Of a stretch of DNA of 64,000 bases, positions 14,698 through 54,329 are shown piece after piece. Made by a program: the position numbers and the translations under genes. The notes below the pieces were generated by a model. That model was given only the letters and a program-made list of their open reading frames with translations, was not told where the DNA came from and made no database searches. Within the stretch, counting starts at the first letter, position 1; the number at the start of each line of letters is the position of its first letter. Origin of the DNA: a virus; the IMG/VR virus record IMGVR_UViG_3300036823_000301, positions 1 through 64,000 of that record. One strand, given 5' to 3'.

Positions 14698-15552
14698 ATG
14701 ACAACAACTGTAAGAGTTATAGCAGACAGCTATTACGATCACGGTGTTCGCCTCACAACATTACAATTGAAATACCCGCGCTTCATTCATCCGGAATTTT
14801 TGACTCATCGTGTGTTTTCAAGAAACGCGAGCTCTTCGCGGGCAACCCCTGTTGAGCGTATCATCGAATCGCTTGAGCGCGATCCAGTACGTCCATGTGA
14901 ATGGGGTAAAAACAGACCTGGTATGCAGGCACATGAAATTTTCGACCCTCTCGAAGTTTTTGAATTGGAGAGTTTATGGATAGACGCCATGGCCGAGATG
15001 GTTCGTGTGGCCAAGAATATGGTAGCTCGTGGTGTACACAAATCCATCGTGAATCGACTATTGGAGCCATGGTCCCATATCAATGTGATTGTGACATCGA
15101 CAGAGTGGTCAAACTTTGAAGAATTGCGTTGCCATCCAGACGCCGCACCGGAAATGCAAGAATTGGCTCAAGCCATTCGTGATGAGATGGTGTTAAGTGG
15201 CCCACAAATTCTACATGCTGGTGAATGGCATATTCCATATGTCAACTTGATTGAACGCAGTCAGCTGAATCTACAGGCACAGTTGAAAATAAGTGTGGCT
15301 CGCTGCGCACGTGTGTCGTTTTTGACACACGAAGGCAAAGTACCTCAAACTGCTAAGGATTTGGAGCTTTACGATCGTTTGGTTGGTGCGAAGCCGCTGC
15401 ATGCCAGCCCATCCGAACATCAAGCTACCCCTGATCCGACGAATGCTCACTGTTCCGAGCATGGTAATTTTCGTGGCTGGCGGCAATTCCGCAAAATTCT
15501 GGAGAAAGATTCGACACTTTTAGCTTTACAGCAGACCGCCATAGCAGTATGA
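14698..15552 (+). CDS. thyX: flavin-dependent thymidylate synthase (ThyX/Thy1, phage type)
   Basis: THRVFSRNASSSRA (RHRxxSxxxxSxR-like), HKSIVNRLLEP, SVARCARVS, HASPSEH. Confidence 0.88.
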   Translation: MTTTVRVIADSYYDHGVRLTTLQLKYPRFIHPEFLTHRVFSRNASSSRATPVERIIESLERDPVRPCEWGKNRPGMQAHEIFDPLEVFELESLWIDAMAEMVRVAKNMVARGVHKSIVNRLLEPWSHINVIVTSTEWSNFEELRCHPDAAPEMQELAQAIRDEMVLSGPQILHAGEWHIPYVNLIERSQLNLQAQLKISVARCARVSFLTHEGKVPQTAKDLELYDRLVGAKPLHASPSEHQATPDPTNAHCSEHGNFRGWRQFRKILEKDSTLLALQQTAIAV

Positions 15553-15553
15553 A
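15525..15553 (+). promoter_or_regulatory. putative promoter of the Y RNA-Ro60 locus
   Basis: TTTACA-N17-TATGAA; predicted +1 falls at ~15558-15560, the 5' end of the first Y RNA. Confidence 0.55.
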
Positions 15554-15557
15554 GTCT

Positions 15558-15691
15558 GTGTCGAGTCGGATGAGGTTGATTATCCTTTTGGCGGACGAGG
15601 TCGAAGGTTCGAGTCCTTCTCCTAGGGTAAATCCTAGGGTAGCTCAGCTGGTAGAGCGCGCGTATATCAACTTTGAATTTTTACTCGACAC
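15558..15691 (+). ncRNA. yrlA: YrlA-type Y RNA (Ro60-binding stem plus circularly permuted tRNA-like domain)
   Basis: Terminal stem GTGTCGAGT(15558-66)/ACTCGACAC(15683-91) with bulged C; T-arm GAAGG-TTCGAGT-CCTTC; loop-closed acceptor-like stem TCCTAGGG-TAAA-TCCTAGGG; D-arm GCTC-AGCTGGTA-GAGC; order T-acceptor-D; adjacent to a TROVE gene. Confidence 0.9.
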
Positions 15692-15706
15692 TGAAGTTTG
15701 TTTGTT

Positions 15707-15773
15707 GGTGACAGTCGGATGAGTTCGTTTATCGCTAGGATGATCGCGAATTCATAAAATACTTACTGTCGCT
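15707..15773 (+). ncRNA. minimal Y-RNA-like hairpin 2
   Basis: GGTGACAGT-C-GG.../...CTT-ACTGTCGCT terminal stem; inner stem ATGAGTTCG/CGAATTCAT; shared TTATC motif. Confidence 0.75.
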
Positions 15774-15780
15774 CTAAATC

Positions 15781-15857
15781 GTGATGCTAGTCGGGTAGTG
15801 TCGTTTATCAGTTATCAACTGATCCAACGTGTGACATTAAAGACTTACTAGCATCAC
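15781..15857 (+). ncRNA. minimal Y-RNA-like hairpin 3
   Basis: GTGATGCTAGT-C-GG.../...CTT-ACTAGCATCAC terminal stem; inner stem TAGTGTCG/TGACATTA; TT-ATCAGTT/AACTGAT hairpin. Confidence 0.75.
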
Positions 15858-15862
15858 TTTAC

Positions 15863-15901
15863 AACGGCCCGGACAACTAGCCCCTCTGTCCGGGCCGTTT
15901 T
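15863..15901 (+). terminator. intrinsic terminator or processing hairpin between the Y RNAs and Ro60
   Basis: AACGGCCCGGACA-(11 nt)-TGTCCGGGCCGTT, ending in a 4-T tract. Confidence 0.6.
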
Positions 15902-15923
15902 GATTCTATCGAAGGAATAGAAG

Positions 15924-17561
15924 ATGACCAACGTGTATGTGAAGAACCGTAAGTCCGTTCTGACACCGCAGAACCAGCCGATTCCAGGCCGTGAAGCTGA
16001 AATGGTGCCGAATAATGCCGGCGGCTACAGCTTTGAGCTGGATGATTGGGAACGTTTGAATCGCTTTTTGATTCTGGGTAGTGAAAAAGGTACTTATTAT
16101 GTAGGCCAAGAAAAACTTAAAGAGCAAAATGCGACCTGTGTGATTCGCTGCATCAAAGCGGATGGTGTGCGCGTTGCTGATGCCGCTGCGATGATCAATA
16201 TCTCTAATCGCACGCCGAAGGTTGACCAGCAGCTGTTTGTTCTGGCTTTGTGCTTAAAGCATGGGGACATCGCTACCCGACGTCGTGTAGCGGAGCTGGT
16301 GCCATCAGTTGTCAGAATTGGTATGCATTTGCTGCATTTCGCGGCGATGGTGGATTCGCTTGGTGGCTGGGGAAACCTCAAAAAGCGGATCTTTGCTGAC
16401 TGGTTTCTAAACAAGTCGCCGGATGATGTGGCATTTCAGATCCTGAAGTACCGGAATCGGGATGGGTGGACCATGCGCGATATCCTGCGTCTGGCGCATC
16501 CTAAACCAGAATTTTCCGGCCATATGGCGTTGTTTGCATGGGTCACCGGTAAGCTGACAAATCTTGACCATCTACCCCGAATCATCGCTGATTATCTTGA
16601 TGTGACGACAGGCACCTTCGAGACCCCTGTTCAGCAAGCGCTGGCTGGCATTGCCAGGGGGCTACCACGTGAGTGCCTACCAACGGAGGCACTAGCGGAT
16701 AAGGCCGTCTGGAGCCGGTTGCTAAGGCTCACGCCGCCACATGCCTTAATCCGGAATCTCGCAACGATCACGGCCAATGGCACCATTGTCGCCGGGAATG
16801 CTGACGCGTGCTATGTGGTCGAACGTTTGGAAGATGCCGGGTCTTTGGCGCGGGCACGGGTGCACCCATTCGCGCTCCTATTGGCGGCGCTCATCTATAG
16901 GCAAGGACACGGATTCAAAGGCACGTTGAGCTGGCTCCCCCTGCCATCTGTTGTGGGTGCATTAGACAATGCTTACGACGCTGCCTTCGCCACGATCCTG
17001 CCGACGAACAAGCGGATCTTGATCGGAGTGGATACATCAAGATCGATGAGCGGTTCTTGCACAGGGACTCCGATCGACTGTGCCACGGCAGCGGCTGCGA
17101 TGGCGATCACGTTGGCCAGAAACGAACCTGCGGCAACTGTCGTGCGGTTTGATACCTGTGTCAGATCTATCCTACCGGTGACTCTTCGTACCGGAATCAG
17201 CGATTTAAGATCGACGTCAGGGGGAGGCACCGACATATCCGCTCCAATCCGTTGGGCCTCTGGCGACAAGAGTGTATCAACGTCACGTTGGGGCCAGCGT
17301 GACGAGGGCTTAATGAGCGAAGTGAGGATATTCGACGCTTTCATCATATTGACTGATAATGAGACATGGGCTGGATCTGGTCATCCTTCACAGGCCCTGG
17401 TGGAATACCGTAAGAAAGTCAATCCACAAGCCAAGCTAATTTGCTGTTCGATGGCCGCGAACCATGCCAACATTGTTGACCCGGAAGATGGTGGATCGTT
17501 CGGCACCGCCGGGCTTGATGCCCATTTACCAAATTTGGTCAGAGACTTTTTGAGCTCTTGA
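15924..17561 (+). CDS. rsr: Ro60/Rsr TROVE-vWA RNA-binding protein
   Basis: NNAGGYSF...RLNRFLILGSE.GTYY, GGWG, KYRNRDGW..RDILRLAHPKP, ALIRNL, RVHP, MIDAS DTSRS, GGTD, ILTDNETW. Confidence 0.96.
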   Translation: MTNVYVKNRKSVLTPQNQPIPGREAEMVPNNAGGYSFELDDWERLNRFLILGSEKGTYYVGQEKLKEQNATCVIRCIKADGVRVADAAAMINISNRTPKVDQQLFVLALCLKHGDIATRRRVAELVPSVVRIGMHLLHFAAMVDSLGGWGNLKKRIFADWFLNKSPDDVAFQILKYRNRDGWTMRDILRLAHPKPEFSGHMALFAWVTGKLTNLDHLPRIIADYLDVTTGTFETPVQQALAGIARGLPRECLPTEALADKAVWSRLLRLTPPHALIRNLATITANGTIVAGNADACYVVERLEDAGSLARARVHPFALLLAALIYRQGHGFKGTLSWLPLPSVVGALDNAYDAAFATILPTNKRILIGVDTSRSMSGSCTGTPIDCATAAAAMAITLARNEPAATVVRFDTCVRSILPVTLRTGISDLRSTSGGGTDISAPIRWASGDKSVSTSRWGQRDEGLMSEVRIFDAFIILTDNETWAGSGHPSQALVEYRKKVNPQAKLICCSMAANHANIVDPEDGGSFGTAGLDAHLPNLVRDFLSS

Positions 17562-47800: not shown

Positions 47801-47933
47801 AAGCTGCGGACGTGCCAGCCGTGACCAATTGATAAGCATTACCAGAATTTGAAATTCTGGTGCCGATTGTCGTATAGGCGTGGGAGGTCGCCCACGCCGA
47901 TAGATTGTAATGAATCTGTGACGTAATGGTCAT
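44832..47933 (-). CDS. virion protein: carbohydrate-binding-like N-terminus, parallel beta-helix, long Ala/Thr/Gly repeat stalk
   Basis: AWATSHAY...YQLVTAGTS...DGSCVWKY; NCTF/NCLF/NSMF repeats ending RPQG..CDIGPWE; ~20-aa repeats. Confidence 0.65.
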   Translation of the reverse strand: MTITSQIHYNLSAWATSHAYTTIGTRISNSGNAYQLVTAGTSAASGGPTTTGSSITDGSCVWKYLSSIDFTSLLAWGASFSEADLTQAVVASLWNNGTITTTSGTQYLDLSNYFGTSPTNTVTVQCAQGESYRDTLAGQSTPLAFNAAAGVSFTLPATGTGATNYLRLPSNSTIIGVQFQDPNSGSGSTIMDGGPNGAVNLYDCLYDGYVQTSAGGMVGHSGGNVANCTFINRGANNEFGWCLQGFNGDSATPISVYNCLFLNTVSGNNTAAGFNNNNSSGTANIVKNSMFFGFSDTSPPIGSSGATNNIDHCIFSNTSNSWFSSQHAVDGGGNLFSKITTNQFVNPATDFRILRTADALNAGPATTTSMPVTDDVAGTSRPQGTACDIGPWELVLVQQTSAAITGTGLVTPVARAIEHGQLAQAALGTAVARAALLEAVTASTVAVASVTVNATHNPAAVANIALTGNATATTGYIAGPQAVLSGSGQAVSDSSHTAPAAPTLAGSGQLIGNATHTPQAVVSLGPVSGVAVDGLHISPGSAVFAGSGSLSLSTLFIAQAVAGPAGAATVTLNATHTPQAAVQASGVGTVLPNAILLPITTSTLGGSGGVSSTASHTPTAAPPVSGTANVTVTAANSAGGSVTVVGTGQAASSPILIDTQAALTISGNGVASATSTHTPQADTISSPITGAGSVMVGADRVPPQNTILSGAGTIFVPFASVLDSAVISIGATGGANSTALLIVQPTASSAGVVNVAASAIHTPQAAATIAVAGSAAATALIVNATNPVAIAPAGSLSASQFVLFAGAPLALAGAGSVLAGIAPSLAGSITLPGTAAITTAALAYKVAVPQITGIVGIVVQATHTPQAAIGIAPLSTVTLVEVTVLEAQPNLMGTGGALATATHTPFASATIQGSGSVALFVGSSILTAPMAIAGSGSIIVEAVHDISTSATITGTGGVATLVAPVGVARANINGLVRIRIDALVYPEHDTPSISGEGHVFVAVNIKRAPHPEPLAPWRTIVIGRRHTKNKVIA

Positions 47934-50900
47934 TGCGCACCTCGTGGGCTTACGCGAATGATTCGCGACCCCCCTGTTACCCTGCGCGCGCTTTGTGGAT
48001 CAGTGACCCGCAATGTTGTGGACCTTTCGGTGACCGTGCGCGGCGTTGGCGCAACAGTAACTTGTGCAATCCTTCGATCAGTTGCACGCGGGAATAGTGC
48101 CGGTAGCCGCCTAATAAGGGTATTGGCCTCCACGACACCGACACCAGCGATTATTGGATAAGCTGCTGATAGCTGGATTGAATCTGCGGCAACGAGACCG
48201 GAGCCGTCAATAAATGTCGTTTTCAAACGTGGTGTAGCGTCGATTAAAACATCGACTTCGCCATCAATCCCTACGCTGGCGGTCAGTGCGTGCGGAATCA
48301 GCGAATCGGTTGTGACCGAGCCCTCAGCGTCGATTTCGCCAGAAGCTGCAAGACGTAAGACACTTTCAGCGGTGACTGAGCCTTCACCGGCGGCCTGACT
48401 ACCATCAGGCCGCAACGCAGTCGAACCGGACAACGCAGAGCCAGATGCAGCAATCTCCCCCTGACCCGCCGCCAGATTGATGGTGCCGGTAGACGCTGCA
48501 CCGGACCCGCTGATGACAATATTGGCGAACGGTGCGTGAGAGACCGCACCGTTGACGCCGCCAGATCCCACCAAAACGGCTTTGCCATTAAACAGAAGCG
48601 ACGTTTGGACAGGGGGGATAGTCCCAGAGCCCGTGATTGTAGCCGCGTCACCGATCGCTGCTTCAGCAGTGACGGTGACGCTGGTCGAGCCGGAGAGTGT
48701 GGCTGTGGCGCCCGCGCTGACAATTGTCGAGGTGACGTTACCGGTGCCGTTGATCGTGACACCGGCCTGAGCGACCTCTGTAGCACGGGCTTCAACGGCA
48801 CCGGTAACGTTGACAACGGGTCGGGCTGTCGGTGTATGGGTGGCGGCGGTAACGACGCTTGCGAACCCTGTAAGGGTCGCCATGCCGGCAGGCATGTGCG
48901 TTGCCACGACCGCCCCCGCACCAGATCCGGCGAGCGCTGCGCGTCCAGCCGACAAGACGATCGCCGATGCAGCCAACTGACCTTGTGGCTGAATGGTGAC
49001 ACTGACTGTACCTGGAATAACAGCATTGGCGTTGGTTATGCTCCCAACGCCGCCGATTAGCGTCTGGGATTGGGTATCAATCAGGGTAGCGGGGACGTAA
49101 ATCGATCCTGCGCTTACAATTGAACAGGTAGCGAACGAGACTGGAAAAGCCGACGCTGAAGCGGCTCCCACGACAGCGATCAGAATCTGCGCCTGAGTAT
49201 CGGTCAGCGTCCCGTGCGCGGCTACATTACCGGAGCCAACAGCTACGCTAAGAACGTGCGCGATAACGGTGGCTGCTGACTCGACGCTGGTGGTGCCAGT
49301 GATCGTCGCTGCCGCAAAGGATTCCGAGGACAGCGCGCTGGCATTGAAGCTGGTTGAACCAACGATCGTGGTTGTGCCAGCAGCTAGCACAATAGCATCG
49401 ACGGCAACGCTACCGGTAATCACAACGGAGCAGGGATTGGAACCCGCTGCACCGCTTGGGTTAATCCCAACGCTGCCCGAACCGGTGATGCCGACGACAC
49501 CTGTCGCGACAAGCTGAGTCGCTGTGACGGCAGCGTTACCCGACCCAGCTATCGAGCTATAAGCAAACTGTTGTGGTAACCCGTTGGCTGCAACGCTACC
49601 CAAACCGTTTAGGGTGACGGGATTGGTTGCCCAAACCTGTTCGCCACTGCCAGCCCCCAGCCCCACGCCTACAAGTGCGGCCGTCGCGAATGATAAGGGT
49701 GTTAGTGCGTTACCACTGACTGTGGATGCGCCAACTAGTGCTGCCGCATCCAGCGCCAGAACGCTGGCGGTGGTCGTGACTGATCCAGCGGCTATGACCA
49801 CCCCAGACCCAGCGGACGTGCTGGCACCAACGGATGTTATGACCGAGCTGGTGCCATTGAGTGTAGCTGTCGCGAACGATTCCGGAATCGTTGTCGCTGA
49901 AAGAGCACCGACGCCGGAGACAGTTGTTGTGGTCAGTTCATCAAGAACAGCCGCGGTTGTTACGGTAGCATTACCAGACAACGCCGCTGTTGTGGCATCA
50001 AGCGCGACTGCGGCGACGGTAACGGAGCCGGTCCCGGCTGCCGAAGCGTAAGCAAATGATTCCGGCCCGATCGCACTGACGATGACCGAGCTCGCACCTG
50101 CAATGATGTCTCCATCAGACGCGAAAACGATTCGCGTGGCTGTGGTCGCGACATTACCGGACCCAGCTATGCTGGATGTGGAAAGCTGATCAGTAACAGC
50201 AACCACAAAGACACTGGCTGCCCCTGCCAATGACGAGCTTGCGAATGACAGGGGGGCTTGCGAGCTTGGGGTGACTGAACCCGAGCCAGCGATTAGGCTA
50301 GCATTCGCCGCAAAGATCTGAGTCGCGACCGCTGTGACATTGCCAGAGGTTGCAAACGTGGCTCCGGCAAACGATTCCGGCCCGATCGCATTGATGGAGA
50401 CGCTGCCAGAGCCAGCAATCAGATCGACATTAGGCGCGAAAACGATTTGCGTTGGAGTTGCTGTGGAACTACCGGAACCGGCGATCGTAGCAGTCGTCAG
50501 CTGATCAGTAACAGATGCAACGGCAACACTGCCCGCCCCTATGAGCGCTGCTGTCGCGAAAGACAGGGGAAGCAGCGCTGCGGCAGTGACTGATCCTGTC
50601 GCTGCCGCATTGACGACACCAAGCACAATCTCTGTGCCAGCTACTGCCACGTTGCCAGTGACAGTGAGCGTCGCAGAACCGGCCGTAGCTGGGGGTGTTG
50701 GGGTAGCTGTGACTGAGCCCGCCCCTATGAGCGCTGCTGTCGCGAAAGACAGGGGAAGCAGCGCTGCGGCAGTGACTGATCCTGTCGCTGCAATCCCGGC
50801 GGTTCCCGTCAGAACCTGGGTGAGTTTGATGAAGCCGGTTGCCCCAACACCACCGGCTGCGGTCGAACCATATCGCGTGCCACCGCCGCCACCACCCGGC

Positions 50901-52360
50901 CAGCCGCCGCCACCAGCCGTGCCAGTTGTCGAAGTACCGCCACCGCCACCAGATCCACCGCGACTGTCGCTCTTACCGACTGTGTTGGCAGCGCTTCCGG
51001 TTACAGTTGCCCCATCCGCACTCCCCCCTGTCGCCCCCGTCGCTGATGATGTTGTCGCTCCGGCCCCAGCGGCGCCCTCCCGTCCAGCCGTGCCGGCACC
51101 TGATGCGCCACCCCTGGCGGATGTTGTGCCGCCTGCACCACCCGCAGCACCAACTGTGTTGGTGTCGCCACCCGATCCGGCCGCGCCCGCTGCACCAGCC
51201 GACGCACCCGCTGCACCACTATGACCACCATTCGCGACAACGGTTCCGGCTGCCGTGGAGGTGCCTGTAGCGGCGCCAATGACGGCAGCGATCGTGCTGC
51301 CAGCAGTGACCGCGAGGAAATTCTTCCGTGTGTAGCCCGATGATCCGCCACCCGATCCTGATGACGTGCTTGTGCCCGGTCCACCATTACCGCCACCGCC
51401 CCAAACTTCAACCGTCGCGATGTTTGATGTCCAAGTTGCAGGAATGTTGATGCTGGTGACACCACCCAGCACGAACACTTGGTCAGGGGCATTTCCCACC
51501 CAACTGATCTTGATGCCACCGTAGCCGCCGCGTCCGATGTTGGCTGAACCTGTTGGCCCAGTTCGATCGGACCCGCCACCGCCTGGATTGCCGCCGGCCG
51601 AACCATTTATTTCTAGGGTGCCGTTGTTGCCAGAACCACCAGCTCCACCACCGCCGTTGTCGTAATCATCATCGCCAGCACCGCCGGATGCTGAACCGGC
51701 GGTCGCGCCAGATCCGCCGCCACCACCACCGCCTGGAGCTGTACCGACACCACCGACGACGCTTGCCCCTGTTCCCCCTGTTCCCCCACCGGTGCCACCG
51801 CCGTTACCACCTGCGGTTGCAGTTCCTCCGCTACCCGTTCCTCCAGATGCTGACGCGCCTCCGCCGCCACCGCCACCGGTTGTGGCACCTGTCCCGCCCC
51901 CTCCGTCGCCGCCGGTCGATCCAATTCCGCCAGGGCCGCCTGCGCCACCACCACCACCGACGCCGTTGTTGGTGCCGTTGACACCATTGAGGCCACCGGC
52001 TCCGCCAGCAAACGTGGTTGTGCCGACGCGGGTCGTACCAGAGCCACCGCCATTGGCCAGGATGGTGGCAGTCGTATTGAACCACGTGTCACCCCCTGAT
52101 TGCGCTGACGTGGTGCCAGGGGTGCCCAAGGAGAAAGGAATCGCTGTGCCGGCGGTCAGCGATTGGTTGGAAATTGTCGCATAACCGCCACCAGTACCGC
52201 CGTTGCCGGTGTTATCATCACCGGCCTCGCCTGCGCCCCAGCATTCGACCTTCGCCGCCGATGTCACGGTGAAACGGGGCGTGAACAATCCGGTACCAGA
52301 ACCGATGATGTAAACGGTGGTCAACGCTACCTCGCTATAGCTGCGAAGGTAACACGGCAA
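47930..52360 (-). CDS. large glycine-rich virion protein with ~20-aa Ala/Thr/Ser repeats
   Basis: Two Gly-rich domains (VECWGAG...GG.GGGY), then many LAGSGSV-type repeats. Confidence 0.7.
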   Translation of the reverse strand: MPCYLRSYSEVALTTVYIIGSGTGLFTPRFTVTSAAKVECWGAGEAGDDNTGNGGTGGGYATISNQSLTAGTAIPFSLGTPGTTSAQSGGDTWFNTTATILANGGGSGTTRVGTTTFAGGAGGLNGVNGTNNGVGGGGGAGGPGGIGSTGGDGGGGTGATTGGGGGGGASASGGTGSGGTATAGGNGGGTGGGTGGTGASVVGGVGTAPGGGGGGGSGATAGSASGGAGDDDYDNGGGGAGGSGNNGTLEINGSAGGNPGGGGSDRTGPTGSANIGRGGYGGIKISWVGNAPDQVFVLGGVTSINIPATWTSNIATVEVWGGGGNGGPGTSTSSGSGGGSSGYTRKNFLAVTAGSTIAAVIGAATGTSTAAGTVVANGGHSGAAGASAGAAGAAGSGGDTNTVGAAGGAGGTTSARGGASGAGTAGREGAAGAGATTSSATGATGGSADGATVTGSAANTVGKSDSRGGSGGGGGTSTTGTAGGGGWPGGGGGGTRYGSTAAGGVGATGFIKLTQVLTGTAGIAATGSVTAAALLPLSFATAALIGAGSVTATPTPPATAGSATLTVTGNVAVAGTEIVLGVVNAAATGSVTAAALLPLSFATAALIGAGSVAVASVTDQLTTATIAGSGSSTATPTQIVFAPNVDLIAGSGSVSINAIGPESFAGATFATSGNVTAVATQIFAANASLIAGSGSVTPSSQAPLSFASSSLAGAASVFVVAVTDQLSTSSIAGSGNVATTATRIVFASDGDIIAGASSVIVSAIGPESFAYASAAGTGSVTVAAVALDATTAALSGNATVTTAAVLDELTTTTVSGVGALSATTIPESFATATLNGTSSVITSVGASTSAGSGVVIAAGSVTTTASVLALDAAALVGASTVSGNALTPLSFATAALVGVGLGAGSGEQVWATNPVTLNGLGSVAANGLPQQFAYSSIAGSGNAAVTATQLVATGVVGITGSGSVGINPSGAAGSNPCSVVITGSVAVDAIVLAAGTTTIVGSTSFNASALSSESFAAATITGTTSVESAATVIAHVLSVAVGSGNVAAHGTLTDTQAQILIAVVGAASASAFPVSFATCSIVSAGSIYVPATLIDTQSQTLIGGVGSITNANAVIPGTVSVTIQPQGQLAASAIVLSAGRAALAGSGAGAVVATHMPAGMATLTGFASVVTAATHTPTARPVVNVTGAVEARATEVAQAGVTINGTGNVTSTIVSAGATATLSGSTSVTVTAEAAIGDAATITGSGTIPPVQTSLLFNGKAVLVGSGGVNGAVSHAPFANIVISGSGAASTGTINLAAGQGEIAASGSALSGSTALRPDGSQAAGEGSVTAESVLRLAASGEIDAEGSVTTDSLIPHALTASVGIDGEVDVLIDATPRLKTTFIDGSGLVAADSIQLSAAYPIIAGVGVVEANTLIRRLPALFPRATDRRIAQVTVAPTPRTVTERSTTLRVTDPQSARRVTGGSRIIRVSPRGAQ
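50531..50791. repeat. 75-bp perfect direct repeat (50531-50605 and 50717-50791)
   Basis: GCCCGCCCCTATGAGCGCTG...GATCCTGTCGCTGC occurs twice, 186 bp apart. Confidence 0.9.
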
Positions 52361-52778: not shown

Positions 52779-53052
52779 CTATGTGTTCGCGACAGGCCGT
52801 TAATCCTATCACCGCTCTTTCGAGCTGCTGCATATCCCTATGCAGAGCAGATCATGTCATCACCCATTGCATCAAATGGGGCCGGGCGCTTCCACTCACT
52901 TGAGTGTACTCCCTCGCGGGATGATCGTTGCACCTTCCGTCTTGCGACGGCTTGGCTCAAAGTTAACCGTTCTGGTACTTCTTTGAGTTCACCCGGTTCT
53001 TCGATAGATTTCTCAATCTAAAGGGCCAAAACTCATTCGTTACGGAGTCTTT
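52779..53052 (-). ncRNA. group I self-splicing intron (IA-like, P7.1/P7.2 present), ORF-less, 274 nt; boundaries could shift by 1 nt
   Basis: P3 CCGGGUG/CGCCCGG, P4 CUCAAAG/CUUUGAG, P6a CCGUC-GCAA-GACGG, P7 GAUCA/UGAUC, P7.1 UCCC-GCGA-GGGA, P7.2 CACUCA/UGAGUG, P8 CCCAUU/AAUGGG, P9 CUGCAUA-GGGA-UAUGCAG, terminal G; removal restores the frame. Confidence 0.88.
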
Positions 53053-53177: not shown

Positions 53178-54329
53178 TCAAGCACGATCAAGCGCTGACC
53201 AATCTGAAATCGGCAAACCGGTCACAACATTGACCCCTGGCGAACAGATCCGAAGATCTTTCACCATACGACCATTTGCGCGAAGATGTAAAAGACCTTT
53301 GGCAACTAGAAGAATAGTTTCAACACTAATATCAGAGATGCACGCTGCCCCTGTATTATCCTTGTTCGGGAAACATGTCTCAGGGGTGTCATGTAACTTA
53401 TGACAACTGTGACAAGGCACTCTAATCTTGTCTGCTTCAAGCGTAACTGTATTTACCCAATGTTTCGTTATATTTTCCGCGGATGCGTGAGATATCATAA
53501 GGATCTTTGGTATTGACTCCATGCCTACGGACCATTGCGGTCCCGTATCAGGGCCTATCATGAGATCGCACTGCTGACATTGAGTCAACGAACGTCTAAT
53601 CGGCCAGCTCGGATCGGCTGGATCAGGGGAGAGCGCGAGATGCAGTCCGTCATCGCTACCATTTTGACGTTGTACGTGCTCCTGAATCGTTTTCGCAATT
53701 TCGAAGTCTTTGCCCGGTGCACCGAACATGATGACTGGGGTATTGAGCTCTCTAATAAGCCTAGCAATAGCCATGGCCGAATACGGATACAACTTATCAT
53801 GGCGGGAACCAGAAATACACCACCCGATGACTCGATCGCCGACTTTTCGTTTGGTGTCAAGCGCTTTTTCTATTTCCTCATCAGTTGGATAGAATCGAGG
53901 CCCGATTGTAAAGTCGTGAGGCACCTCACAGACATCGTGCACCATTTCGATATAGCTCTTGCCACACATTTTGCGACGCACCGACGACGGCCAATAAAAC
54001 TGCGTTTGAGCAGGGATAAGTGCGAGGGTGCTCTCACAGGTGTGGCTCAAGTTGACAAATTTCGTGAATTCGCCTGACCGCCCTACGAACCAGCGCTGCC
54101 ATTCCAAGATTCCCCCTTGCGGTGTGCCGATCTCCCCTGACTTCTTGACCGACAGCTTGTCAATGTAGGGATTGTTTTCAAACACGACATGATGCGGCTC
54201 TTGCGCGATAACTTCCAGGTTGTAATCCTGCGCGATCAGGGGGAACGCGGATGAGCACATCAGATTGTCACCTATGGAGCCGAGCCGCACGACACCATAC
54301 CAGCCCTTCGGTTTGCGAATGATTCCCAC
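53178..54329 (-). CDS. GT9-family glycosyltransferase (heptosyltransferase-like)
   Basis: RLGSIGD, NNPYID, K.YP, IGPDTGP, CHSC. Confidence 0.85.
   Translation of the reverse strand: MGIIRKPKGWYGVVRLGSIGDNLMCSSAFPLIAQDYNLEVIAQEPHHVVFENNPYIDKLSVKKSGEIGTPQGGILEWQRWFVGRSGEFTKFVNLSHTCESTLALIPAQTQFYWPSSVRRKMCGKSYIEMVHDVCEVPHDFTIGPRFYPTDEEIEKALDTKRKVGDRVIGWCISGSRHDKLYPYSAMAIARLIRELNTPVIMFGAPGKDFEIAKTIQEHVQRQNGSDDGLHLALSPDPADPSWPIRRSLTQCQQCDLMIGPDTGPQWSVGMESIPKILMISHASAENITKHWVNTVTLEADKIRVPCHSCHKLHDTPETCFPNKDNTGAACISDISVETILLVAKGLLHLRANGRMVKDLRICSPGVNVVTGLPISDWSALDRA

What the first reader, a model, noticed from the sequence alone, without database searches (positions are those of the whole stretch)
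15525..17561. Phage-encoded Ro60/Y-RNA ribonucleoprotein locus: promoter, three tandem Y RNAs, hairpin, full-length Ro60
Seen: the 370-bp gap between thyX and an intact TROVE-vWA gene is entirely structured. A TTTACA-N17-TATGAA promoter is followed by three RNAs whose 5' and 3' ends pair. Each has the same AGU-C(bulge)-GG / (C/U)UU-ACU helix, a second stem, and a UUAUC-initiated hairpin. A terminator-like stem follows. Known: a bulged-C helix is the Ro60-binding element of Y RNAs, and bacterial Rsr-Y RNA complexes act in RNA decay (with PNPase) and often lie beside rtcB RNA-repair genes. Inference: the phage makes its own Ro RNPs with three different RNA modules. They could redirect host RNA decay, feeding the adjacent NrdAB/ThyX, or counter tRNA-targeting defences. 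No rtcB is visible in the window. Ro60/YrlA pairs have been reported in some phages, so novelty would lie in the three-RNA array and its context.
Basis: partly seen in the sequence, partly recalled or inferred. Interest (0 to 1): 0.92.

Follow-up and report, generated by a model that had tools for sequence, protein, structure and literature searches.

The report
Phage Ro60 gene with three Y RNAs
An uncultured soil phage carries a gene for the ring-shaped RNA-binding protein Ro60 and, just upstream, three small partner RNA genes (one imitates a tRNA); this is a real but fairly ordinary example of a protein-RNA pairing already known from bacteria and other phages.

Summary
The 371-nt gap between thyX and a full-length Ro60 gene (TROVE + vWA_Ro60) holds three tandem RNAs with paired 5' and 3' ends, then a strong hairpin.

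- **RNA1 (15558-15691):** it matches Rfam YrlA over the full model, below the gathering score. Cultured mycobacteriophage loci score about the same. It has the permuted T-arm, acceptor-like stem and D-arm.
- **RNA2 and RNA3:** short Y RNAs sharing RNA1's handle (covarying stem, GUCG with a bulged C, second stem, UUAUC).
- **Independent test:** a covariance model built only from other loci ranks these three as its top hits in the region.

The three-RNA array is not special. About 100 related Ro60 loci carry 0-6 handle motifs on the Ro60 strand, and 30 of 98 have three or more. These loci come from viral contigs, metagenomes, bacterial chromosomes of several phyla and cultured actinophages. Mycobacterium phage Dandelion has a short-long-short array of three.

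The short class shows strong covariation and has no Rfam family. A conserved -35-like box supports the promoter. The terminator-like hairpin is not conserved. The proposed links to NrdAB/ThyX or tRNA repair have no support: no synteny, and no RtcB, RNA ligase, PNPase or tRNA genes in the 74-kb genome.

This scan has already reported multi-RNA arrays beside Ro60-like genes on other DNA. Verdict: new member of a known kind.

The parts
15525..15553 (+). Sigma-70-like promoter candidate: -35 TTTACA (15525-15530), 17-nt spacer, -10 TATGAA (15548-15553, overlapping the thyX stop codon)
   Evidence: Read directly from the sequence. It matches 9 of 12 consensus positions but fails the scanner's rule for the last -10 base. 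A TTGAC-type hexamer sits at the same distance (32-36 nt) upstream of the first Y unit in L061, L062, L066 and L136.
15558..15691 (+). Y RNA 1, YrlA type (134 nt). Handle: GUGUCGAGU-C-GG paired with UUUUUACUCGACAC. Apical permuted tRNA-like module: T-arm 15603-15619, acceptor-like 7-bp stem-loop 15620-15639, D-arm 15642-15657
   Evidence: Rfam RF02553 YrlA matches over the full model (1-114) at 33.3 bits, E 1.7e-5, below the gathering score of 69. R2 matches the handle at 30.2 bits across a 78-nt insert. ARAGORN and the Rfam tRNA model find no tRNA here.
15707..15773 (+). Y RNA 2, short type (67 nt): the same handle, a second stem GAGUUCG/CGAAUUC, and an apical UUAUC-GCUAG-GAUGA mini-hairpin
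   Evidence: MFE -25.9 kcal/mol, z -4.6. R2 scores 17.9 bits. The mini-hairpin motif occurs in 17 of 107 distinct short units from other loci.
15781..15857 (+). Y RNA 3, short type (77 nt): the same handle with an 8-bp outer stem, a second stem, and an apical 7-bp hairpin AUCAGUU/AACUGAU
   Evidence: MFE -27.8 kcal/mol, z -4.4. R2 scores 21.1 bits.
15863..15905 (+). Terminator-like hairpin: 13-bp G+C-rich stem, 11-nt loop, then UUUUGAUU
   Evidence: -25.8 kcal/mol, z -5.75. The scanner does not call it because the loop is longer than 8 nt. No equivalent was seen in the closest relatives.
15924..17561 (+). Ro60 (Rsr) gene, 545 aa, with Shine-Dalgarno AAGGA at 15912-15916
   Evidence: Pfam vWA_Ro60 1.2e-39 and TROVE 6.5e-23. 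It aligns end to end with vertebrate RO60 (9nen, 1e-88), D. radiodurans Rsr (2nvo, 2e-84) and Xenopus Ro (1yvp, 5e-83). The MIDAS motif D-T-S-R-S is present.

Best explanation
This is a phage-encoded Ro60/Y RNA ribonucleoprotein locus.

**Proposed mechanism**
- A promoter overlapping the end of thyX, or read-through from thyX, transcribes a roughly 300-nt precursor holding three Y RNA genes.
- A strong hairpin with a U tract stops or attenuates most transcripts just before the Ro60 ribosome-binding site. This would put the RNAs in excess over the Ro60 mRNA.
- The precursor is cut in the short U/A-rich spacers.
- Each RNA is bound by the phage Ro60 ring through a shared handle: a covarying terminal stem, the GUCG element with an invariant bulged C, an internal loop, and a second stem ending in (G)UUAUC.
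- The three RNAs differ only in their apical modules. One is a permuted tRNA mimic (YrlA type) and two are small hairpins (YrlB-like).
- By analogy with Deinococcus, Salmonella and Thermus phage phiLo, these modules would tether Ro60 to host partners such as PNPase or gate its RNA channel. The effect would be to redirect host decay or quality control of structured RNA during infection.

**Shown here:** protein family membership, RNA family membership, conserved structure and genomic linkage.

**Inferred:** transcription start, processing, Ro60 binding, the host partners and the benefit to the phage.
For: - The Ro60 gene is intact and canonical.
- RNA1 matches Rfam YrlA over its full length with the T-arm, acceptor-like stem and D-arm in that order. 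Its score (33 bits) is at the level of the loci of mycobacteriophages Dandelion and Farewell (36 bits). Mycobacteriophages are among the phages in which Chen et al. 2014 (PMC4201824) reported YrlA.
- All three units carry variants of the two YrlA hallmark motifs named by Chen et al.: GNCGAA(N)G appears as GUCGGAUG or GUCGGGUAG, and YUAY appears as UUAU.
- Model R1 for the short units finds 115 matches beside Ro60 in viral and metagenome loci, and 34 more in bacterial chromosomes. All are on the Ro60 strand. It also hits four cultured actinophages that were not in the seed.
- Covariation is strong: 90% of cells are paired, against 36-45% when partners are slid, and 300 cells show changes on both sides against 42-99.
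- The independent model R2 recovers all three window units.
- A -35 box is positionally conserved in relatives.
- Published precedent exists. M. smegmatis and D. radiodurans Y RNAs are processed from one precursor (PMC4201824). Phage phiLo Ro60 binds two upstream Yrl RNAs and forms complexes with host PNPase in vitro (PMC12135203).
Against: - There is no expression or binding evidence. No RNA run holds the sequence and the host is unknown.
- The Rfam YrlA score is far below the gathering score (33 against 69 bits).
- The window units are divergent members: R2 gives only 18-30 bits, and only RNA2 passes the default filters genome-wide (E 0.07).
- The -10 hexamer lacks the conserved final T.
- A hairpin this strong, 25 nt before the Ro60 start codon, would also block Ro60 expression unless read-through occurs.
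- The phage encodes no PNPase or RNase PH, so the effector is purely inferred.
Confidence: 0.8

Rival explanations
1. Only RNA1 is a working Y RNA. RNA2 and RNA3 are decaying duplicates of the handle with no function of their own.
For: Both score low with the independent model (21.1 and 17.9 bits). RNA3 lacks the exact GYCGRA(N)G motif.
Against: Both keep fully paired outer and inner stems through compensatory differences. Short handle-only units form a conserved, covarying class in more than 140 places beside Ro60, often several per locus. Characterised bacteria each have at least two Y RNAs, including a hairpin type (PMC4201824).
Confidence: 0.08
2. The structured gap is a cis-acting leader of the Ro60 mRNA rather than a set of discrete RNAs. 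In this reading Ro60 binds its own leader to control the attenuator hairpin.
For: The array lies directly upstream on the same strand. The terminator-like hairpin ends 25 nt before the start codon, and there is no room for a separate Ro60 promoter.
Against: In many related loci the same units lie downstream of Ro60: L024, L025, L082, L102 and L144. The hairpin is not conserved. In M. smegmatis and D. radiodurans such units are processed into stable RNAs bound in trans (PMC4201824). The two roles could also coexist.
Confidence: 0.07
3. The region is a remnant of tRNA genes, or chance palindromes in an intergenic terminator region.
For: RNA1 contains perfect T- and D-arm sequences. The Rfam YrlA model also gives weak matches in control genomes that lack Ro60.
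Against: The arms are in T-then-D order, with no anticodon arm and no tRNA call. The handle motifs and stems recur in three adjacent units and in about 100 Ro60 loci, always on the Ro60 strand.
Confidence: 0.02

Closest known systems
Bacterial and mycobacteriophage Rsr (Ro60) with YrlA/YrlB Y RNAs (Chen et al. 2014, PMC4201824; Rfam RF02553)
   Same: - The Ro60 ortholog has Y RNA genes within a few hundred nt on the same strand.
- One RNA carries the permuted tRNA-like module.
- Variants of the GNCGAA(N)G and YUAY motifs are present.
- There are at least two Y RNAs per genome, plausibly made from one precursor.
- Mycobacterium phage Dandelion has the same three-unit layout.
   Different: - The handle sequence is divergent: AGUCGG rather than GGGYCG, and (A/U)UUAUC rather than GGUUAUC.
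- The Rfam score is below the gathering score.
- No rtcBA neighbours are present.
- The locus sits in a nucleotide-metabolism and replication module of an unrelated phage (DNA polymerase at most 42% identical to any cultured phage).
Thermus phage phiLo Ro60 with Yrl1 and Yrl2 (PMC12135203)
   Same: The phage Ro60 gene has multiple Y-like RNAs directly upstream. The phage has no PNPase of its own, so a host partner is expected.
   Different: phiLo has two RNAs, chosen by a CGAA motif and folding. Its Ro60 does not appear among the sequence matches to the window protein at E 0.001. phiLo has binding and structural data, and this locus has none.
Listeria phage CKA15 (P100-like): three abundant transcripts upstream of an Rsr-like gene (PMC12282133)
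   Same: Three short, highly transcribed regions lie within 2 kb upstream of a phage Rsr-like gene on the same strand. The authors suggest they are Y RNAs.
   Different: That case rests on transcript data without a shown Y RNA structure. This case rests on structure and homology without transcript data.
Metazoan Y RNAs bound by Ro60 (Stein et al. 2005, as cited in PMC4201824)
   Same: The paired 5' and 3' ends form a stem with a conserved bulged C in a G-rich 5' strand. This stem is the Ro60 binding site, and variable loops recruit other proteins.
   Different: The Rfam Y_RNA model gives no match at E up to 10. The apical modules differ.

Membership tests
Ro60 / Rsr (TROVE + vWA) | TROVE HEAT-repeat ring domain followed by the Ro60-type vWA domain, at full length | tested here: met
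   Pfam TROVE 82 bits (cut-off 23) and vWA_Ro60 136 bits (cut-off 27.7). Residues 5-542 align with Rsr 2nvo and with vertebrate RO60.
Ro60 / Rsr (TROVE + vWA) | MIDAS motif DxSxS in the vWA domain | tested here: met
   D-T-S-R-S is present in the window protein, and D370, S372 and S374 are invariant among 35 relatives.
YrlA (Rfam RF02553; Chen et al. 2014) | Score at or above the Rfam gathering score | tested here: not met
   33.3 bits against 69. The same shortfall is seen at the loci of mycobacteriophages Dandelion and Farewell (36 bits).
YrlA (Rfam RF02553; Chen et al. 2014) | T-arm, acceptor-like stem and D-arm in that order, enclosed by a stem formed from the 5' and 3' ends | tested here: met
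   The full-model alignment shows GGUUCGAGUCC and UAGCUCAGCUGGUAGAGC in T-then-D order.
YrlA (Rfam RF02553; Chen et al. 2014) | GNCGAA(N0-1)G near the 5' end and YUAY at the start of the V loop | tested here: inconclusive
   The window has GUCGGAUG, which differs at one position (G for A). 45 of 107 related short units fit GYCGRA(N)G. YUAY is present as UUAU.
YrlA (Rfam RF02553; Chen et al. 2014) | Lies within 4 kb of a Ro60 ortholog on the same strand | tested here: met
   RNA1 ends 233 nt upstream of the Ro60 start codon, on the same strand.
YrlA (Rfam RF02553; Chen et al. 2014) | Bound by Ro60 in vivo | not testable with these tools
   No RNA run holds the sequence and no binding data exist.
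Short (YrlB-like) Y RNAs, as defined here by models R1 and R2 | Covarying terminal stem, G-Y-C-G with an unpaired invariant C, a second stem ending in GGUUAYC, and a position beside Ro60 | tested here: met
   The independent model R2 scores RNA3 at 21.1 bits and RNA2 at 17.9 bits, as full-length matches. The window units are divergent: A replaces G before GUCG, and U replaces G before UUAUC.
Intrinsic terminator | G+C-rich hairpin immediately followed by a U tract | tested here: inconclusive
   The hairpin has a 13-bp stem at -25.8 kcal/mol and is followed by UUUUGAUU. Its 11-nt loop falls outside the scanner's rule.
Sigma-70-type promoter | -35 and -10 hexamers with 16-18 nt spacing, and the conserved A2 and T6 in the -10 | tested here: inconclusive
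   The hexamers match 9 of 12 positions with a 17-nt spacer, but T6 is missing. A TTGAC-type -35 is conserved at the same distance in four close relatives.

The most novel reading that the evidence does not exclude
Ro60 genes in phages and in many bacterial phyla are generally accompanied by arrays of up to six Y RNAs. In this reading, the RNAs in an array share one Ro60-binding handle and carry interchangeable apical modules.

The handle-only short class modelled here has no Rfam family. It would be a distinct, largely unannotated RNA family.

In this phage, the three RNAs would act as separate adaptors that send one Ro60 ring to different host partners during infection.
Probability: 0.3. Interest if true: 0.55.

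Novelty: new member of a known kind. Interest (0 to 1): 0.4.

Why it matters
This gives a clean, compact phage example for bench work: one Ro60, one tRNA-mimic Y RNA and two minimal Y RNAs within 2 kb.

The comparison also shows that multi-RNA arrays beside Ro60 are the rule rather than a curiosity. A short Y RNA class with strong covariation is missing from Rfam, so it goes unannotated in phage and bacterial genomes, including well-studied mycobacteriophages.

None of this changes how Ro60/Y RNA particles are understood. What such particles do for a phage remains an open question.

Tried and rejected
- **Rfam at gathering thresholds:** the only match in the window is a group I intron elsewhere. 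Twenty related loci gave no YrlA match.
- **Searches for close relatives:**
  - Megablast of the locus against cultured phages found nothing.
  - A single-protein scan of viral contigs found no relative. An alignment-based scan was needed.
- **RNA-seq evidence:** no RNA holder is listed. The four holders are soil DNA metagenomes.
- **Laying contigs on the locus:** this showed only near-identical fragments and one low-depth T>C change at 15832, in an unpaired position of RNA3. It gave no micro-covariation.
- **The look-up of encoding contigs:** Short metagenome contigs were used instead.
- **MAFFT plus RNAalifold on the short units:** only the outer stem was recovered. The inner stem needed a covariance-model realignment.
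- **The outer-stem rule:** it was used to pick the seed units, so covariation in that stem is partly circular. The inner stem, the 3' motifs and the non-seed hits are the independent evidence.
- **Link to NrdAB/ThyX:** rejected, because no neighbour is shared with the closest loci.
- **Link to RNA repair:** rejected for lack of RtcB, RNA ligase and tRNA genes.
- **Annual Review on bacterial Ro60 (PMC10870794):** not held, and no supplement of Chen 2014 is held. I could not check whether the short units in mycobacteriophages were already listed.
Full report
**What is there**

The window is the first 64 kb of a 74,423-base IMG/VR virus record that CheckV rates as complete. PHROG matches to DNA polymerase, primase, tail fibre, baseplate wedge and baseplate hub confirm a tailed phage. 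Its DNA polymerase is at most 42% identical to that of any cultured phage. The only sequencing runs that hold it are soil metagenomes.

On the + strand the gene order is NrdA, NrdB, ThyX (14698-15552), a 371-nt gap, then a 545-aa Ro60. The Ro60 has Pfam TROVE and vWA_Ro60 domains and an intact MIDAS motif. It aligns end to end with vertebrate RO60, D. radiodurans Rsr and Xenopus Ro at E 1e-83 to 1e-88.

**The gap**

Folded as a whole, the gap gives three domains whose 5' and 3' ends pair, followed by a 13-bp G+C-rich hairpin and UUUUGAUU.

RNA1 (15558-15691) matches the Rfam YrlA model over all 114 positions (33.3 bits, E 1.7e-5). It has a T-arm (15603-15619), a 7-bp acceptor-like stem-loop (15620-39) and a D-arm (15642-57), in that permuted order. 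ARAGORN and the Rfam tRNA model call no tRNA there. The score is below the gathering score of 69. The Ro loci of cultured mycobacteriophages Dandelion and Farewell score about the same (36 bits), and mycobacteriophages are among the phages in which Chen et al. 2014 reported YrlA (PMC4201824).

RNA2 (15707-15773) and RNA3 (15781-15857) are short. All three units share one handle:
- an outer stem that differs in sequence between units but stays paired;
- AGU-C-GG opposite (U/C)UU-ACU, with the C unpaired;
- an internal loop;
- a second stem that also covaries;
- (A/U)UUAUC opening the apical part.

The GUCGGAUG and UUAU elements are variants of the GNCGAA(N0-1)G and YUAY motifs. Chen et al. give these as hallmarks of YrlA and of Ro60 recognition.

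**Comparative test**

The closest Ro60 relatives are 49-59% identical and lie on metagenome contigs. By eye, their upstream regions also hold several tandem units with GGGYCG ... GGUUAUC ... AUAUCC.

I counted the 5' motif in the flanks of about 100 non-redundant Ro60 loci. It occurs 210 times on the Ro60 strand and 29 times on the other strand, over 212 kb. The number of motifs per locus is 0 (21 loci), 1 (21), 2 (26), 3 (13), 4 (10), 5 (4) and 6 (3).

I built a covariance model of the short unit (R1). It finds 42 + 73 matches in viral and metagenome loci and 34 in bacterial chromosomes. The bacterial hosts include Sorangium, Vicinamibacterales, Planctomycetota, Chloroflexota, Verrucomicrobiales and Actinomycetota. 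Every match lies beside Ro60 on its strand. Many of these matches were not in the seed. R1 also hits cultured phages that were not in the seed: Gordonia BearBQ, Mycobacterium Farewell, Mycobacterium Dandelion and Streptomyces Kenrey.

On the 73-row alignment, 90% of cells are paired, against 36-45% when partners are slid. There are 300 cells with changes on both sides, against 42-99. Both helices take part. That includes the inner stem, which played no role in choosing the seed. It also includes the pair formed by the Y of GYCG (C-G 32, U-A 31) next to the invariant unpaired C.

A second model, R2, was built only from those metagenome matches. It returns the three window units as its top three hits in 15300-16100: RNA1's handle across a 78-nt insert at 30.2 bits, RNA3 at 21.1 and RNA2 at 17.9. 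Their modest scores show that this phage's handle is a divergent variant. With default filters over the whole genome, only RNA2 passes, at E 0.07.

**Is a three-RNA array unusual?**

No. Thirty of 98 loci have three or more handle motifs. Several viral contigs have four to six units that mix tRNA-like and short types: L012, L014, L032, L036 and L099. Mycobacterium phage Dandelion has a short-long-short array of three just upstream of its Ro gene.

The literature already has relevant precedent:
- at least two Y RNAs in every characterised bacterium, processed from a common precursor (PMC4201824);
- two Yrl RNAs upstream of Thermus phage phiLo Ro60, which bind it and host PNPase in vitro (PMC12135203);
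- three abundant transcripts upstream of an Rsr-like gene in a Listeria phage, suggested to be Y RNAs (PMC12282133).

Earlier follow-ups in this scan also reported multi-RNA arrays sharing a handle beside Ro60-like genes on other DNA. I did not test those.

**Promoter and hairpin**

TTTACA-N17-TATGAA matches 9 of 12 consensus positions but lacks the final T of the -10, so the scanner does not call it. However, a TTGAC-type hexamer sits at the same distance (32-36 nt) upstream of the first unit in L061, L062, L066 and L136, within otherwise unrelated flanks. The -10 regions there are weak (CATAAG, CATATA, TAGACA). This positional conservation supports a dedicated promoter with a start near 15558-15561.

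The hairpin at 15863-15899 is very stable and is followed by a U tract, but it has an 11-nt loop and no counterpart in relatives. It ends 25 nt before the Ro60 start codon, so Ro60 translation needs read-through. I read the hairpin as a leaky terminator or a 3' stabiliser that keeps the RNAs in excess. That is inference.

**Function**

By homology, the phage Ro60 binds the shared handle of each RNA, and the apical modules determine the partners. In D. radiodurans and S. Typhimurium, a Y RNA tethers Rsr to PNPase to degrade structured RNA (PMC4201824). phiLo Ro60 and its Yrl RNAs form complexes with host PNPase in vitro (PMC12135203).

This phage has no RNase PH/PNPase domain, no RtcB, no RNA ligase and no tRNA gene. 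Any effector must therefore come from the host.

Only Ro60 itself is shared with the closest loci. Their neighbours are SNF2 and DnaB helicases and a DNA methylase.

**Limits**

- There are no expression or binding data.
- Seed units were picked partly by the pairing of their outer stem, which makes that stem's covariation partly circular.
- I could not read the 2020 review or the 2014 supplement. I therefore cannot say whether the short units in mycobacteriophages were already listed.

**Verdict**

The claim of novelty for the array and the specific functional ideas are not supported. This is a new member of a known kind. One useful by-product is a well-supported short Y RNA family that Rfam lacks.

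Noticed in passing
window 52828-53044 (- strand): A group I intron matches Rfam RF00028 at 54.7 bits (gathering score 50). It lies between the minus-strand ORFs 53178-54329 and 47930-52360, so it may split a structural gene.
   Followed up: no
L133 (Mycobacterium phage Dandelion, NC_023696.1) 1061-1410: Three tandem Y RNA handle units (short, long with a YrlA-like insert, short) lie in the unannotated gap upstream of the Ro gene of a cultured Bixzunavirus.
   Followed up: partly
L061, L062, L066, L136; window 15525-15530: A (C)TTGAC -35-like box is conserved 32-36 nt upstream of the first Y unit, with weak -10 hexamers. This suggests a dedicated promoter type for these arrays.
   Followed up: partly
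L124:4154-4293; L032:2603-2746; L036:2587-2734: Long units with the same handle carry different inserts. L124 has the D-arm before the T-arm, which is the normal tRNA order. L032 and L036 have a different D-like arm. The apical modules therefore look interchangeable.
   Followed up: no
L131 (Mycobacterium phage Farewell) 461-1019; L064 223-296; L014: tRNA genes lie directly next to the Y RNA arrays in several loci. Farewell has four tRNAs just upstream. The window phage has none in its 74 kb.
   Followed up: no
L144, L146, L147, L149, L151 (bacterial chromosomes): In Vicinamibacterales and Sorangium chromosomes, two or three short Y units lie downstream of Ro60 rather than upstream.
   Followed up: no
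window 15832: One soil metagenome (X3) has a T>C variant at an unpaired position of RNA3. The depth is 2.4, so it may be an error.
   Followed up: no
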